DNA from: Escherichia phage SHEFM2K
Length of the DNA: 64,000 bases
Sequence record: PQ390715.1
Direction: 5' to 3' (one strand)
Below the pieces are notes generated by a model. The model did no database searches, was not told the DNA's origin, and worked only from the letters and a program-made list of their open reading frames with translations. Positions 52,920-56,108 of the stretch are shown here, one piece after another. Made by a program: the position numbers and the translations under genes. Each line of letters opens with the position of its first letter. The stretch's first letter is position 1.

Positions 52920-55583
52920 ATGGCAGATACAAGTAAAAAGTATGCACAACAGCAGTTGGGTCGTTTTGACCCATCTTATCCGCAGTTAGCAACTGTTATG
53001 GATAACAGAGATCCAACTAAATCAGGAAAACTGAAAGTTTGGATACAAGGTTCTCAAAGTGATAAAAACTCAAAAGAATCATGGATAGAAGCATCTTACA
53101 TGTCTCCTTTTGCTGGTAAAACACCAGGTATTCCAAGTGCTGATGCATATGGTCAATATCCAAAAGGATACGGTTTTTGGGCAGTACCACCAGACGTAGG
53201 GTGTACAGTTGTTGTAATTTTTGCACAAGCCCGTACATTCCAAGCATATTGGATTGGTTGTGTATATGACCAGCGTATGAATACTATGGTTCCAGGTATG
53301 GCAACTGAAGTAAGTAATTATGGTGGAACTGATATGCCACTTCCTGTTACTGACTATGATCGTAACACTATCACTACCGATATGCAAGACAAATATGCTA
53401 ACGTTCCAATTATCGCAGGTCTTAAAAAGCAAAACCTTTTATATGACGAAGAAGCTGGGTTGGCAAATCGTAGTAGTACTCGACAAACCACCAGTACTGT
53501 ATATGGTATGTCTTCGCCACGTGGTAATAGTTTTATTATTGATGATGGATATACTGAAGAGGAATTAACAGCACCAACGTGGGATCAAGACCCAGATGGA
53601 TATCAAGATACACAATTTAATAACCCAGTAAACGATACACGTGTTGGTTCTCGTAAAAATGAAGGTGTCGTAATAAAAACACGTAGTGGTGCACAACTTC
53701 TTTTATCAGAAGCTACTGGTGATGTTCTTTTAATTAACCGTGATGGCACTGCACGTATAAAATTCACTGGTGAAGGTGATATTGACATGCACTGTGATAA
53801 GAATATTAATATTCGTGCTGGTCAAGATATTAATATTACTGCTGGACGTTCATATAATATTGAAACCGGACAAGATTTCAATGCACGAGTTGGTGCAAAT
53901 ACTAAATTAGATCTAATTGGTGCTCTTGATGCAAAAGTTGGTGGACAAGTTGTTGTTAATTCTGGGGCAGACCTTCGTTTAGTTACGGCTGCATCATTAC
54001 GTATGCAAAGTGGTAGCAGTACTGATATTACGGCTGGTTCAAATGCTTCTATTTCTGCCGCAACATCTGCAAACCTAATTGGATCATCATCAGCAATTAT
54101 TAGTGGTGGTGGTCAAACATTAACAGTTAATAGTGGTGGTAATAGCGGCACTGCTGAATTTACTGCACCAAACTTTAGAACACCATCTGCTGGTCTTAAT
54201 GAACACATTCATGATATTGCTGCATGGGTTAACGCTGAAAATCATGGTAGTTATGTTGAACCACCAAGACAAGGTGGTGGAAGTGGTTCTAGTGAATCAC
54301 CAGTACAACCACAACCAGCAAATGATGTATCACCAGAATTACCCGTAGCACAAGACACTGAAGCTGTTCAGTTTGTTAACTATACATCAGAAACTGAACA
54401 AGTTCAATCACAAGATTTGATGACATCTGATCCTGGGATGACTGGATATAGTATTACATATGAAGGTTTACATATGTTAATGCCATGTAGCGGTACTATT
54501 CGACAATATGGTTACTGGGGGAAAGGTGTTCCAACACAAAGTGGAGGAAAGGCAGACCGTTCAGGTTGGGAAATACAATGTAAAGGTGATGTAGTTGCAC
54601 CAGATGGTGGCGTGGTAGTAATTACTAATGGTGCTCTTTTAATACAACATAAGTCTGGATATAAATCTATTTTTTATAATATTCAATCTGATTTATTAAA
54701 CAAAGATGTTGTTCAAAAAGGTCAAGTTGTTGGAAAAGCAAATGGTGTCATACAGTTTGAAATTCGTGTTACATCAGCAAATGTTCTTGGATTCAGTGGT
54801 TCTGTTGACCCAGGATTATTTTATGCTTCACAAACAGGAACAGGGTCTGATGCGGCGAATAAAACATTAATTGGTGGTCAAGCAACTAATCAATCTGCTC
54901 CAAAAGCAGTTGTACAACCTTCAGTTGATAGTGATGAATTGGTAGTTACAACAAAAATCAAAACGATAGGTACTGGATATTCTCAACGTGGTTCTCGTCA
55001 TGTGCCTCGTAGAAGAAGAACACAGAGAAGTGGAGCTTCAACAACTCCGGTGGAGCAACCTACCTATAATATTGGAAATGTTGATAAAACTGCAATCGAT
55101 TGGAAAGTTGTTCCAGGTGATGCACAGTTTATTTCTGAATTAAAAGAATATGAAGGTACATTACAATACCAACAAGCAAAAGGATATTATCGTAATGGTA
55201 AATTCTGGCGTTATTTGGATAGTCGTGGGTATCCAACTATTGGTTATGGTCACTTGATTATTAGTGGTGAAAATTTTTCAGATGGAATAACTGAACAGCA
55301 AGCCAACGATATGTTAGTTCGTGATAGTAGTAAAGCTATATATGATGCTAAATCAATTTATGCTTCATATAACATGAAAACACCTTATTTGGCTCAACAA
55401 GTACTATGCCAAATGGTATTCCAGATGGGTAAAGGTGGGGTACTTAAATTTAAAACTATGTTGTCTGAATTAGCTAAAGGTAATTATAAACAAGCTGCTG
55501 CTCAAATACGTAATTCAGCTTGGTATCGCCAAACTACTCGCCGTGCTGAGTTAATGGCTCGTCGTTTAGAGGCATGTCAATAA
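52920..55583 (+). CDS. gp5: baseplate central spike, gp5-like, with C-terminal T4-lysozyme (GH24) domain
   Basis: 887 aa; N-terminal OB-fold-like region, beta-helix-like repeats (NINIRAGQDINITAGRSYNIETGQDFNARVGANTKLDLIG...), C-terminal domain with T4 lysozyme signatures (EYEG, YLDSRG, PTIGYGHL, MVFQMG, WYRQTTRRAE). Confidence 0.85.
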   Translation: MADTSKKYAQQQLGRFDPSYPQLATVMDNRDPTKSGKLKVWIQGSQSDKNSKESWIEASYMSPFAGKTPGIPSADAYGQYPKGYGFWAVPPDVGCTVVVIFAQARTFQAYWIGCVYDQRMNTMVPGMATEVSNYGGTDMPLPVTDYDRNTITTDMQDKYANVPIIAGLKKQNLLYDEEAGLANRSSTRQTTSTVYGMSSPRGNSFIIDDGYTEEELTAPTWDQDPDGYQDTQFNNPVNDTRVGSRKNEGVVIKTRSGAQLLLSEATGDVLLINRDGTARIKFTGEGDIDMHCDKNINIRAGQDINITAGRSYNIETGQDFNARVGANTKLDLIGALDAKVGGQVVVNSGADLRLVTAASLRMQSGSSTDITAGSNASISAATSANLIGSSSAIISGGGQTLTVNSGGNSGTAEFTAPNFRTPSAGLNEHIHDIAAWVNAENHGSYVEPPRQGGGSGSSESPVQPQPANDVSPELPVAQDTEAVQFVNYTSETEQVQSQDLMTSDPGMTGYSITYEGLHMLMPCSGTIRQYGYWGKGVPTQSGGKADRSGWEIQCKGDVVAPDGGVVVITNGALLIQHKSGYKSIFYNIQSDLLNKDVVQKGQVVGKANGVIQFEIRVTSANVLGFSGSVDPGLFYASQTGTGSDAANKTLIGGQATNQSAPKAVVQPSVDSDELVVTTKIKTIGTGYSQRGSRHVPRRRRTQRSGASTTPVEQPTYNIGNVDKTAIDWKVVPGDAQFISELKEYEGTLQYQQAKGYYRNGKFWRYLDSRGYPTIGYGHLIISGENFSDGITEQQANDMLVRDSSKAIYDAKSIYASYNMKTPYLAQQVLCQMVFQMGKGGVLKFKTMLSELAKGNYKQAAAQIRNSAWYRQTTRRAELMARRLEACQ

Positions 55584-55595
55584 ATATTTTAGTAC

Positions 55596-55603
55596 TATAA
55601 ATA
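55596..55603 (+). promoter_or_regulatory. T4-type late promoter motif TATAAATA
   Basis: Exact octamer 17 bp upstream of the endolysin ATG (55620). Confidence 0.5.
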
Positions 55604-55619
55604 AAACGAGGATATCTTT

Positions 55620-56108
55620 ATGAGTAAATGGGAAATTAAAAATACAGATGAGCAATTTTTTAAGGAAATTAAAGAATTTGAAGGAACTATTGCTTATCAG
55701 AAAAAACTTGGTTATTTTAAAAATGATAAGTTTTGGGTATATAAAGACAGCTTAGGTCTTGATACAATTGGCTATGGTCACCTAGTTTTACCTGGTGAAA
55801 ATTTCAAGAATGGTTTAACAGAAGCACAAGCTGACCAACTTCTTCTTAAAGATGCTCAAACTGCGTACAATGATGCAAAATCAATTTATGAACAATTTGG
55901 TATGACCGCACCTATACAGGTTCAACGTGTATTATGGTTGATGGTATTCCAGATGGGCAAAACCAAAGTTTTAAAATTTAAAAAAGCAATGACCGCATTA
56001 GGTAAGGCTGATTATAAAACTGCTGGTAAGGAATTGCGTGATAGTACATGGTATAAACAAACCACTTCAAGAGCGGAAAAGATGGCACGTATTGTTGAAT
56101 CCGTATAA
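55620..56108 (+). CDS. e: endolysin, T4 lysozyme-like (GH24)
   Basis: 162 aa; catalytic-triad context conserved (EFEG, YKDSLG, DTIGYGHL), MVFQMG and WYKQTTSRAE match T4 lysozyme NMVFQMG and WYNQTPNRAK; exact TATAAATA motif upstream. Confidence 0.9.
   Translation: MSKWEIKNTDEQFFKEIKEFEGTIAYQKKLGYFKNDKFWVYKDSLGLDTIGYGHLVLPGENFKNGLTEAQADQLLLKDAQTAYNDAKSIYEQFGMTAPIQVQRVLWLMVFQMGKTKVLKFKKAMTALGKADYKTAGKELRDSTWYKQTTSRAEKMARIVESV

What the first reader, a model, noticed from the sequence alone, without database searches (positions are those of the whole stretch)
52920..56108. gp5-like spike with rearranged domain order and an adjacent paralogous stand-alone lysozyme
The 887-aa spike has an N-terminal OB-like region, beta-helix-like repeats in the middle, and the T4-lysozyme domain at the extreme C-terminus. 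In T4 gp5 the lysozyme domain sits in the middle, before the C-terminal beta-helix needle. The next gene is a free-standing 162-aa T4-type lysozyme whose sequence is highly similar along its length to the spike C-terminal domain, and both keep the catalytic contexts (E-x-EG, D-S-x-G, T-IGYGHL). This looks like a recent duplication or fusion between endolysin and spike-lysozyme.
Basis: partly seen in the sequence, partly recalled or inferred. Interest (0 to 1): 0.6.

Follow-up and report, generated by a model that had tools for sequence, protein, structure and literature searches.

The report
Jumbo-phage tail spike with tethered lysozyme
This is the cell-puncturing tail spike of a known PBECO4/RaK2-type giant E. 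coli phage, carrying its cell-wall-cutting lysozyme at the far end rather than in the middle as in phage T4. It sits next to an old duplicate lysozyme gene, and the arrangement was already described for sister phages in 2013 and 2017.

Summary
ORF 52920-55583 (887 aa) has a gp5/VgrG-type OB domain, a VgrG-like beta-helix and a GH24 lysozyme as its last domain. The next ORF, 55620-56108 (162 aa), is a free GH24 lysozyme that is 53% identical to that domain over 158 residues without gaps, against about 30% to T4 lysozymes.

The "recent duplication" reading is not supported. The pair and its synteny are conserved across several genera. Stand-alone copies form their own clade (98% bootstrap), and within-genome identity equals between-genome identity.

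- An invariant HxH motif (H429/H431) directly after the beta-helix, which is the signature of a P2 gpV-type apex.

The window is Asteriusvirus PBECO4 (spike protein 100% identical). The unusual domain order, the three paralogous lysozymes and a possible M23 domain were published for RaK2 (2013) and CBB (2017). The 162-aa enzyme was shown to be muralytic in 2025. A separate TM-LysM-GH24 protein is the predicted endolysin.

Verdict: an ordinary, already described feature of this phage group. The architecture resembles an "evolved VgrG", and two details may be new.

The parts
52920..55583 (+). Central spike gene (887 aa), orthologue of PBECO4 gp534, RaK2 gp078, CBB_240 and phAPEC6 gp241
   Evidence: ORF. 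Protein 100% identical to PBECO4. PHROG 13211 matched full length. Reported as a virion protein by MS in CBB, GAP32 and phAPEC6.
52986..53267 (+). gp5/VgrG-type OB-fold domain (aa 23-116)
   Evidence: Pfam PF04717, 29.8 bits against a cut-off of 23.8.
53268..53666 (+). Highly conserved segment of unknown fold (aa 117-249), at the position where T4 gp5 carries its lysozyme domain
   Evidence: Many invariant columns. AF2 pLDDT 26-57. No Pfam or PDB match.
53667..54149 (+). Triple-stranded beta-helix region (aa 250-410)
   Evidence: Pfam DUF2345. Profile hits to VgrG 9jg8_G (E 7e-6), to 9gtr_q, to 4uhv and to phage central spikes 9f4a and 8kea_D. AF2 gives short strands at pLDDT about 80.
54162..54269 (+). 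Putative apex domain (aa 415-450) with the HxH motif H429-I-H431 (nt 54204-54212)
   Evidence: H429 and H431 are invariant in 42 orthologues. The best PDB hit of the segment profile is the C-terminal apex of a 207-aa phage 'puncture apparatus' protein, 9ndy_G, at a marginal E of 0.04. HxH after the beta-helix is the published apex signature.
54270..54452 (+). Gly/Ser/Pro/Gln-rich linker 1 (aa 451-511)
   Evidence: Low-complexity sequence, pLDDT below 50 over most of it, variable length in the alignment.
54453..54839 (+). Degenerate LytM (M23-fold) domain (aa 512-640)
54840..55091 (+). Linker 2 (aa 641-724) with a conserved strand (ELVVTTKIKT) and a basic patch (RHVPRRRRTQR)
   Evidence: Conserved columns L650, V675, G691, P696. 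pLDDT 36-48.
55092..55583 (+). C-terminal GH24 (T4-type) lysozyme domain (aa 725-887) and stop codon
   Evidence: Pfam PF00959, 45.2 bits. Best PDB relatives are the T4 gp5 lysozyme domain 6xc0/7cn7 at E 4e-11. E745 and D767 are nearly invariant. pLDDT about 88.
55596..55603 (+). TATAAATA, a T4-type late-promoter-like element in the 36-nt spacer
   Evidence: All four + strand copies in the window lie 24-43 nt upstream of start codons. This copy is conserved only in RaK2. Function is inferred.
55620..56108 (+). Stand-alone GH24 lysozyme (162 aa), orthologue of RaK2 gp073, CBB_239 and LysUE1
   Evidence: ORF. Pfam PF00959, 36.6 bits. 53% identical to the spike domain. Muralytic in vitro according to PMC12805682. 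Not detected in virion proteomes.
56124..56519 (+). gp25-like baseplate wedge gene, last gene of the transcription unit
   Evidence: Pfam GPW_gp25.
56524..56547 (+). Intrinsic terminator closing the baseplate operon
   Evidence: 10-bp stem followed by a T-run. Conserved with compensatory stem changes in 8 phages.
50657..52906 (+). Upstream 749-aa virion protein, a candidate hub partner of the spike (context only)
   Evidence: Conserved synteny. No Pfam or PDB match. The hub role is inferred from position only.

Best explanation
The 887-aa protein is the trimeric central (cell-puncturing) spike of a RaK2/PBECO4-type jumbo myovirus. It is built like an "evolved VgrG" rather than like T4 gp5.

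Proposed architecture, N to C:
- An N-terminal OB domain docks it under the tail tube and hub.
- A VgrG/gp5-type beta-helix forms the needle.
- An HxH histidine-cage apex forms its own tip.
- Each chain then continues through a flexible linker into a catalytically dead LytM domain and a GH24 muramidase.

Proposed mechanism: on sheath contraction the needle carries three tethered LytM-GH24 units through the outer membrane into the periplasm, where the muramidase opens the peptidoglycan locally for the tube. The LytM-like domain cannot be a metallopeptidase. It most likely acts as a peptidoglycan-binding, positioning or regulatory module.

The adjacent 162-aa gene is an old tandem paralogue of the spike's lysozyme domain. 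It encodes a soluble, active muramidase that is co-transcribed late with gp25 and is probably not a stoichiometric virion part. It most likely serves as an auxiliary lysis enzyme alongside a separate membrane-anchored LysM-GH24 endolysin.

Shown here: domain identities and order, paralogy, age of the duplication, loss of the M23 active site, and conservation of HxH.
Taken from the literature: virion presence of the spike and the enzymatic activity of the 162-aa protein.
Inferred: trimer geometry, iron cage, delivery into the periplasm, and the roles of the LytM domain and the free lysozyme.
For: Domains and order:
- Pfam hits for OB, beta-helix and lysozyme.
- VgrG and central-spike profile hits over aa 252-415.
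- AF2 models.
- Central catalytic His and both His of HxH absent in 42/42 orthologues, Asp of HxxxD not conserved, first-position His kept in only four.
- H429/H431 invariant; the apex-like hit 9ndy_G; HxH as the recognised apex signature (bioRxiv 10.1101/2023.02.25.529910).

Genomic context:
- Baseplate gene order is gp53-like, 749-aa protein, spike, lysozyme, gp25, gp6-like wedge.
- No + strand terminator occurs between 49.5 kb and the hairpin after gp25.

Virion presence and activity (literature):
- The spike is detected by MS in phAPEC6 (gp241), CBB and GAP32. The 162-aa orthologue is never detected.
- The 162-aa protein (LysUE1) is muralytic in vitro.

Paralogy and age.

A third GH24 paralogue with a TM segment and a LysM domain exists (phAPEC6 gp293) and is predicted to be the endolysin in PMC5259590.

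The C-terminal cargo is modular:
- Distant homologues of the OB plus beta-helix part carry GH19 or GH24 domains at their C-termini, or nothing.
- The syntenic Wroclawvirus spike is a bare 477-aa needle.
Against: - No trimer model or structure could be made. The apex region has low pLDDT in the monomer model, and its only PDB match is marginal (E 0.04).
- An HxH apex followed by 456 more residues is not the canonical situation, where HxH lies near the C-terminus. The motif could instead be a register-keeping histidine cage of the kind seen in fibres.
- Whether the C-terminal domains remain attached in the virion is unknown, because the positions of the MS peptides were not available.
- RaK2 MS did not detect the spike at all, so non-detection of the small lysozyme is weak evidence of absence.
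- The gene's fixed place inside the baseplate operon also fits a structural role.
Confidence: 0.72

Rival explanations
1. The 162-aa lysozyme is a structural baseplate component. It would be supplied in trans and bind the spike or hub, for example at the conserved aa 117-249 segment that occupies the place of the T4 gp5 lysozyme domain. The virion would then carry six lysozyme domains.
For: - The gene is fixed between the spike gene and gp25 in nearly all relatives and shares the operon terminator with gp25.
- The genome already has a membrane-anchored endolysin candidate.
- Low-copy small proteins are easily missed by MS. RaK2 missed the spike itself, and the phAPEC6 structural proteome table does not list the gp25 orthologue.
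Against: - The protein was not detected in the virion proteomes reported for CBB, GAP32, RaK2 and phAPEC6.
- Two lineages (L009, L011) keep the spike but lack this gene, so it is dispensable for building the baseplate.
- Nothing outside the GH24 fold is available to serve as a docking module.
Confidence: 0.15
2. This is the first reader's reading: the pair reflects a recent duplication, fusion or gene conversion between the endolysin and the spike lysozyme in this phage.
For: The two coding segments are tandem and separated by 36 nt. They align without gaps at 53% identity. Third-codon-position identity is 52%, against 34% expected from composition.
Against: - Orthologous pairs occur in phages of at least four genera and in metagenomic relatives.
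- The stand-alone clade has 98% bootstrap support.
- Identity to the phage's own spike copy is the same as to the GAP32 spike copy, 53% in both cases.
- The longest shared DNA run is 17 nt.
Confidence: 0.03
3. The middle domain is an active M23 endopeptidase. The spike would then cut both the glycan and the peptide bonds of peptidoglycan, as phi29 gp13 does.
Against: - No orthologue has either His of the HxH motif or the central catalytic His.
- The Asp of HxxxD is not conserved, and only a few orthologues keep the first His.
- The best structural matches include the non-catalytic LytM domains of EnvC, DipM and SpoIIQ.
- The Pfam score is below the gathering cut-off.
Confidence: 0.05
4. The C-terminal LytM-GH24 part is cleaved off during assembly, as T4 gp5 is cleaved. 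It would either be discarded or stay non-covalently bound, leaving a clean HxH-tipped needle in the virion.
For: - The HxH apex is normally C-terminal.
- Long flexible linkers and a conserved basic PRR(RR) patch could be processing sites.
- There is the precedent of T4 gp5 maturation cleavage (established knowledge; Kanamaru 2002).
Against: - The RaK2 study reported that virion proteins migrated at their predicted masses, but this spike was not among those detected.
- Strong conservation of the GH24 catalytic residues argues that the domain is used. Entry is the obvious place, since two other GH24 genes can serve lysis.
Confidence: 0.1

Closest known systems
RaK2 gp078/gp073, CBB_240/CBB_239, PBECO4 gp534/gp535, phAPEC6 gp241/gp242, LysUE1 (direct orthologues already in the literature)
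   Same: Same genes and same synteny. PMC3622015 (2013) describes the 886-aa protein as having 'very unusual domain composition', with a beta-helix in the middle and the lysozyme at the C-terminus. It also describes three mutually similar lysozymes. PMC5259590 (2017) adds the OB domain, a possible M23 domain and the contrast with T4 gp5. PMC12805682 (2025) shows that the 162-aa enzyme is muralytic.
   Different: Nothing essential. In the papers I read I did not find the invariant HxH apex motif, the loss of the M23 active site, or the dating of the duplication.
T4 gp5 with gp5.4 (PDB 1K28 and related entries)
   Same: OB fold, GH24 lysozyme and triple-stranded beta-helix in one trimeric baseplate spike. 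It has a paralogous free lysozyme (T4 e, 43% identical to the gp5 domain). The gene sits in a baseplate cluster.
   Different: The order is OB, lysozyme, helix in T4 and OB, helix, (apex), LytM, lysozyme here. T4 has no HxH and uses a separate PAAR-type tip. T4 has no LytM domain. In T4 the free lysozyme gene is not adjacent.
P2 gpV, phi92 gp138 and R-pyocin PA0616 spikes
   Same: OB followed by a beta-helix and then an HxH motif. In those proteins the motif forms an iron-binding histidine cage at the tip.
   Different: Those proteins end 10-15 residues after HxH and carry no enzyme. Here 456 residues follow the motif.
'Evolved' T6SS VgrG proteins with C-terminal effector domains, for example V. 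cholerae VgrG-3 with a peptidoglycan hydrolase (from my own knowledge)
   Same: A VgrG-type OB and beta-helix (profile hits) followed by a C-terminal cell-wall-degrading cargo. The cargo is modular among homologues: GH24, GH19 or none.
   Different: This is a phage virion protein with no gp27-like N-terminal module fused. It has its own apex motif instead of a PAAR cap.
phi29 gp13 tail-tip enzyme (PDB 3CSQ)
   Different: The gp13 M23 domain is catalytic, gp13 is not fused to a needle, and its domain order is lysozyme followed by M23.
Degenerate LytM domains of EnvC, NlpD, DipM and SpoIIQ
   Different: Those are bacterial regulators: amidase activators or a sporulation channel part. No evidence here of amidase binding.

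Membership tests
GH24 / T4-type lysozyme (both proteins) | Match to PF00959 above the gathering score | tested here: met
   Spike 45.2 bits and the 162-aa protein 36.6 bits, against a cut-off of 22.3. PDB hits to the T4 gp5 lysozyme domain and T4L at E 4e-11 to 1e-8.
GH24 / T4-type lysozyme (both proteins) | Catalytic Glu, Asp and Thr (T4L E11, D20, T26) present | tested here: met
   Spike E745, D767, T773; stand-alone E21, D43, T49. Glu and Asp are at least 90% conserved in 42 orthologues. Thr is replaced by Asn or Asp in some orthologues.
GH24 / T4-type lysozyme (both proteins) | Muramidase activity | not testable with these tools
   Reported in vitro for the 162-aa orthologue LysUE1 (PMC12805682). 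Nothing is reported for the spike domain.
gp5/VgrG-type central spike | N-terminal OB fold (PF04717) | tested here: met
   29.8 bits against a cut-off of 23.8, aa 23-116.
gp5/VgrG-type central spike | Triple-stranded beta-helix repeat region | tested here: met
   DUF2345 at 34.7-38.5 bits against 30.7. VgrG and phage spike PDB profile hits. The trimeric intertwining itself could not be modelled.
gp5/VgrG-type central spike | Encoded in the baseplate module and present in the virion | tested here: met
   Synteny with gp53-like, gp25 and gp6-like genes. Virion MS comes from the literature only.
T4 gp5 architecture | Lysozyme domain inserted between the OB fold and the beta-helix, with the helix C-terminal | tested here: not met
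   The lysozyme is the last domain (aa 725-887). The helix lies at 250-410. The segment at the T4 position (aa 117-249) has no lysozyme signal.
gpV/gp138-type apex (histidine cage) | HxH motif directly after the beta-helix | tested here: met
   H429-x-H431 is invariant in 42/42 orthologues.
gpV/gp138-type apex (histidine cage) | Motif lies near the C-terminus of the chain | tested here: not met
   456 residues follow the motif.
gpV/gp138-type apex (histidine cage) | Intermolecular Fe-binding cage at the tip of the trimer | not testable with these tools
   Only a monomer AF2 model was possible, and its apex has low pLDDT. The sequence match to 9ndy_G is marginal, E 0.04.
Peptidase M23 (LytM) | M23 fold | tested here: met
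Peptidase M23 (LytM) | Pfam PF01551 above the gathering score | tested here: inconclusive
   23.1 bits against a cut-off of 28.7 for the isolated domain. Some orthologues carry a precomputed PF01551 hit.
Peptidase M23 (LytM) | Zinc ligands HxxxD and HxH, plus the catalytic His | tested here: not met
   R-S-G-W-E replaces H-x-G-x-D. N586 replaces the central His. V-I-Q-F-E replaces H-x-H-F-E. The last two are lost in all 42 orthologues. The domain is therefore filed as a degenerate LytM domain, not as a peptidase.
Canonical endolysin (for the 162-aa protein) | Located in a lysis cassette with a holin and spanin, or carrying a SAR or signal sequence | tested here: not met
   It lies inside the baseplate operon between the spike and gp25. 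The sequence shows no hydrophobic N-terminal segment (inspection only, no TM or signal-peptide predictor was run). The TM-LysM-GH24 paralogue lies elsewhere in the genome.

The most novel reading that the evidence does not exclude
The spike may be a true hybrid in which an iron-caged HxH tip is internal to the chain and three LytM-GH24 units fold back along the needle. The conserved, catalytically dead, EnvC-like LytM domain would then not be mere packing. After delivery into the periplasm it would bind and de-repress host amidases (AmiA/B/C), as EnvC and NlpD do. The phage would combine its own muramidase with hijacked host amidases to open the cell wall at the entry site.
Probability: 0.08. 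Interest if true: 0.7.

Novelty: already known. Interest (0 to 1): 0.22.

Why it matters
The finding shows that contractile-tail spikes are modular. The same OB-plus-helix needle occurs bare, with a lysozyme inserted in the middle (T4), or with enzymes tethered behind the tip as here, which parallels "evolved" VgrG proteins of type VI secretion.

For this phage group the main facts were already published, so the practical value is better annotation. [quoted passage not shown] The M23-like domain should not be annotated as a peptidase.

Two questions are worth a structural or biochemical test, but they do not change the picture of how such phages infect:
- How is an HxH tip compatible with a 456-residue C-terminal extension?
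- What does the dead LytM domain do?

Tried and rejected
- hmmsearch of the domain profile against lysostaphin aligned only the central motif. The outer zinc-ligand positions were mapped by inspection of the 42-sequence alignment.
- A first bootstrap run with Biopython's BLOSUM calculator timed out. I replaced it with an identity-based NJ tree with 200 bootstraps. The deep metagenomic branches are unresolved, with support of 46% or less.
- I looked for a third lysozyme in the window and found none. It lies outside the window and was found in phAPEC6.
- The 749-aa upstream protein gave no Pfam or PDB hit, so its gp27-like hub role remains a guess.
- No supplementary MS peptide lists were available for phAPEC6, so I could not tell whether the C-terminal domains are in the virion.
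- TATAAATA counts are not above chance, and the copy before the lysozyme gene is not conserved outside Asteriusvirus and RaK2. I do not rely on it.
- I considered and rejected the idea that aa 117-249 is a degenerate lysozyme at the T4 position, because there is no signal of any kind there.
- I considered a frameshift or read-through link between the two ORFs. They are separated by TAA, a 36-nt spacer and a Shine-Dalgarno sequence.

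
Full report
**What is there**

The two ORFs are exactly as described: 52920-55583 (+, 887 aa) and 55620-56108 (+, 162 aa). They are separated by a TAA stop, a 36-nt spacer and a Shine-Dalgarno sequence. The window is a known phage. The DNA of this region is 99.8% identical to several Asteriusvirus genomes, and the spike protein is 100% identical to that of Escherichia phage PBECO4. [quoted passage not shown]

The surrounding genes form a baseplate module:
- a virion protein;
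- a gp53-like wedge protein;
- a 749-aa virion protein;
- the spike;
- the small lysozyme;
- a gp25 homologue;
- a 1153-aa gp6-like wedge protein.

There is no + strand terminator between about 49.5 kb and a strong hairpin just after gp25 at 56524-56547.

**Anatomy of the 887-aa protein**

- Pfam finds the gp5/VgrG OB domain (aa 23-116), DUF2345 (a VgrG beta-helix family, aa 278-329) and Phage_lysozyme (aa 765-882), all above their cut-offs.
- A profile of the N-terminal 462 residues built from ten orthologues hits the beta-helices of T6SS VgrG proteins (9jg8_G at E 7e-6, 9gtr_q, 8gra, 4uhv) and of phage central spikes (9f4a, 8kea_D) over aa 252-415.
- An AF2 model built on 42 orthologues is confident for the helix region (pLDDT about 80), for a compact beta domain at aa 510-655 (about 90) and for the lysozyme at 725-887 (about 88). 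The chain ends with the last helix of the lysozyme fold.

The first is an HxH motif. In the 42-sequence alignment (37-79% identity to the query) H429 and H431 are invariant. They sit 15-20 residues after the end of the helix, in a conserved context (APDF.TPSVGLN.HIH.H..F.DA.NHS).
- An HxH motif after the beta-helix is the published signature of the iron-binding apex of P2 gpV, phi92 gp138 and pyocin spikes. Spikes without it, such as T4 gp5, use a separate PAAR protein (bioRxiv 10.1101/2023.02.25.529910).
- A profile of this segment finds as its best PDB match the C-terminal 40 residues of a 207-aa phage "puncture apparatus" protein, 9ndy_G (...FNEHTHHYYWTD...). The E-value is only 0.04.
- Unusually, 456 residues follow the motif here.

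The second is the domain at aa 512-640, which has the LytM/M23 fold.
- The isolated segment scores 23.1 bits on PF01551, below the 28.7 cut-off.
- A 15-sequence profile hits LasA (5e-6), SpoIIQ, zoocin A, DipM and EnvC.
- The metal site is gone. H-x-G-x-D is R-S-G-W-E here; a few orthologues keep the His, and the Asp position is not conserved. The central catalytic His is N586. H-x-H-F-E is V-I-Q-F-E. The last two are lost in all 42 orthologues.
- It is therefore a degenerate LytM domain, like those of EnvC, NlpD, DipM and SpoIIQ, and not a peptidase.

The two linkers (aa 451-511 and 641-724) are low in confidence. The first is Gly/Ser/Pro/Gln-rich. The second holds a conserved strand and a basic PRRRR patch. 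The segment at aa 117-249, where T4 gp5 has its lysozyme, is the most conserved part of the protein, but it has no detectable fold or homologue.

**The two lysozymes**

- BLASTP aligns spike 728-885 with residues 4-161 of the small protein at 53% identity and 70% positives with no gaps, E 3e-57.
- Both copies keep the catalytic Glu, Asp and Thr.
- Both share two derived features relative to T4 lysozymes: a 13-residue insertion between Glu and Asp, and a deletion of about 20 residues.
- Identity to T4 E, to a T4-like gp5 lysozyme domain and to the phage's third GH24 protein is 28-35%.

For scale, the T4 gp5 domain and T4 E are 43% identical in the same comparison, so a spike lysozyme with a free paralogue is the classical T4 situation. 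What differs here is that the two copies are adjacent.

**The duplication is not recent**

- The same gene pair in the same order occurs in RaK2 (with four small ORFs inserted between the two genes), Salmonella phage Munch, CBB, GAP32, Xanthomonas phage XbC2, E. coli phage EJP2 and Serratia phage BF. It also occurs in two metagenomic contigs whose spikes are only 37% and 43% identical.
- In an NJ tree with 200 bootstraps, all spike and stand-alone sequences separate from the T4 lysozymes (100%). The stand-alone copies of the cultured phages form a clade (98%), and the spike copies form the sister group (56%).
- The stand-alone protein is as similar to the GAP32 spike domain (53%) as to its own spike domain (53%), and more similar to its GAP32 orthologue (60%).
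- At the DNA level the copies are 60% identical, with no exact run longer than 17 nt.
- The tandem position still points to an ancient tandem duplication of a roughly 0.5-kb lysozyme-coding unit, but it predates the split of these genera.
- Two metagenomic lineages keep the spike lysozyme and lack the free gene.
- The syntenic spike of Pseudomonas phage Cassandra (Wroclawvirus, PA5oct group) is a bare 477-aa needle without HxH, LytM, lysozyme or a neighbouring lysozyme gene.
- More distant homologues of the OB-plus-helix part end either shortly after the helix or in GH19 or GH24 domains.

The C-terminal enzyme is thus a swappable cargo, as in "evolved" VgrG proteins.

**What the free lysozyme does**

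- It has no evident signal or transmembrane segment (inspection of the sequence only).
- Its orthologue LysUE1 lyses permeabilised cells in vitro (PMC12805682).
- It has not been found in the virion proteomes reported for CBB, GAP32, RaK2 or phAPEC6, whereas the spike was found in three of them.
- The genome has a third GH24 protein with an N-terminal transmembrane segment and a LysM domain (phAPEC6 gp293). The CBB authors predict this to be the endolysin.
- A TATAAATA element lies in the spacer before the gene. Like the three other + strand copies in the window it sits just upstream of a start codon, but it is conserved only in RaK2.

I therefore regard the small protein as a late-expressed soluble muramidase, most likely auxiliary in lysis. 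A low-copy structural role is a live alternative (15%).

**How it most likely works**

By analogy with T4 gp5, P2 gpV and VgrG (established knowledge), three chains form an OB collar, an intertwined helix and a histidine-cage tip. The three C-terminal LytM-GH24 units hang from flexible linkers long enough to fold back along the helix. Contraction drives the needle through the outer membrane, and the muramidase then opens the murein locally. All of this is inference from domain identity. No trimer could be modelled, and no peptide map was available to show that the cargo stays on the virion.

The dead LytM domain may bind peptidoglycan, mask the lysozyme until release or, speculatively, activate host amidases as EnvC does.

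**Novelty**

The core of the finding is already in print:
- The RaK2 paper (PMC3622015, 2013) reports three lysozymes with mutually similar domains (66% similarity between ORF073 and ORF078). It calls the 886-aa protein one of the largest baseplate lysozymes, with "very unusual domain composition": a beta-helix flanked by unknown regions plus a C-terminal lysozyme.
- The CBB paper (PMC5259590, 2017) adds the N-terminal gp5 OB domain, the explicit contrast with T4 gp5, a possible central M23 domain and the virion MS evidence.

In the papers I read I did not find the internal HxH apex motif, the demonstration that the M23 domain is degenerate in the whole family, or the dating of the duplication. 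These are refinements, not a new kind of system. Interest is low (0.22). The most novel reading still open, hijacking of host amidases by the EnvC-like domain, is given about 8%.

Noticed in passing
window 43018-43025, 44907-44914, 49557-49564, 55596-55603 (+): All four + strand TATAAATA motifs (the T4-type late promoter -10 element) lie 24-43 nt upstream of + strand start codons at 43060, 44945, 49600 and 55620. The total count (8) is not above chance (10.8 expected). A gp55-like late sigma factor gene is encoded at 48629-49468 (-).
   Followed up: partly
window 56524-56590; L002-L007 and L014 after the gp25 gene: The terminator hairpin after gp25 is conserved in eight phages, with compensatory changes in the stem. 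It is followed by a conserved GATAAATATTTCTATA motif, possibly the promoter of the gp6-like wedge gene.
   Followed up: partly
window 53268-53666 (spike aa 117-249): This is the most conserved stretch of the spike, with dozens of invariant residues across 42 orthologues. AF2 gives it pLDDT 26-57, and no Pfam or PDB match was found. It occupies the position of the lysozyme domain in T4 gp5 and may fold only against the hub.
   Followed up: partly
L017:4914-6347 (Pseudomonas phage Cassandra, Wroclawvirus): The syntenic spike is only 477 aa. [quoted passage not shown]
   Followed up: partly
L009:6001-9269 and L011:6001-9004 (metagenomic contigs): These relatives keep the full spike with its C-terminal GH24 domain, but gp25 follows directly and the stand-alone lysozyme gene is absent.
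   Followed up: no
L002:2391-3884 (RaK2): Four small ORFs, two on each strand, are inserted between the spike gene and the stand-alone lysozyme gene in RaK2 only.
   Followed up: no
L016:7101-8027 (-) (phAPEC6 gp293; outside the window): This is a third GH24 paralogue with an N-terminal transmembrane segment and a LysM domain. It also has a long insertion between the catalytic Glu and Asp. It is the likely membrane-anchored (SAR-type) endolysin of the group.
   Followed up: partly
P0099, P0107, P0110 (GH19) and P0095, P0115 (GH24): Distant homologues of the OB-plus-helix part carry other cell-wall hydrolase domains at the C-terminus, after the helix. This suggests that this layout is a recurrent modular design among uncultured phages.
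   Followed up: partly
window 54996-55028 (spike aa ~693-703): A basic patch, RHVPRRRRTQR, lies in the second linker. Its PRR core is conserved. It could be a processing site or a binding site for nucleic acid or membrane.
   Followed up: no
window 49510-50331: The mechanical ORF begins at a TTG at 49510. RefSeq starts the gene at the ATG at 49600, which lies 43 nt downstream of a TATAAATA motif, so the shorter form is more plausible.
   Followed up: no
window 45455-48660 (-): An SbcC-like AAA ATPase gene and an SbcD-like metallophosphoesterase gene, followed by the late sigma factor gene, are transcribed divergently from the baseplate operon. The same arrangement is seen in all relatives, including metagenomic ones and Cassandra.
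   Followed up: no
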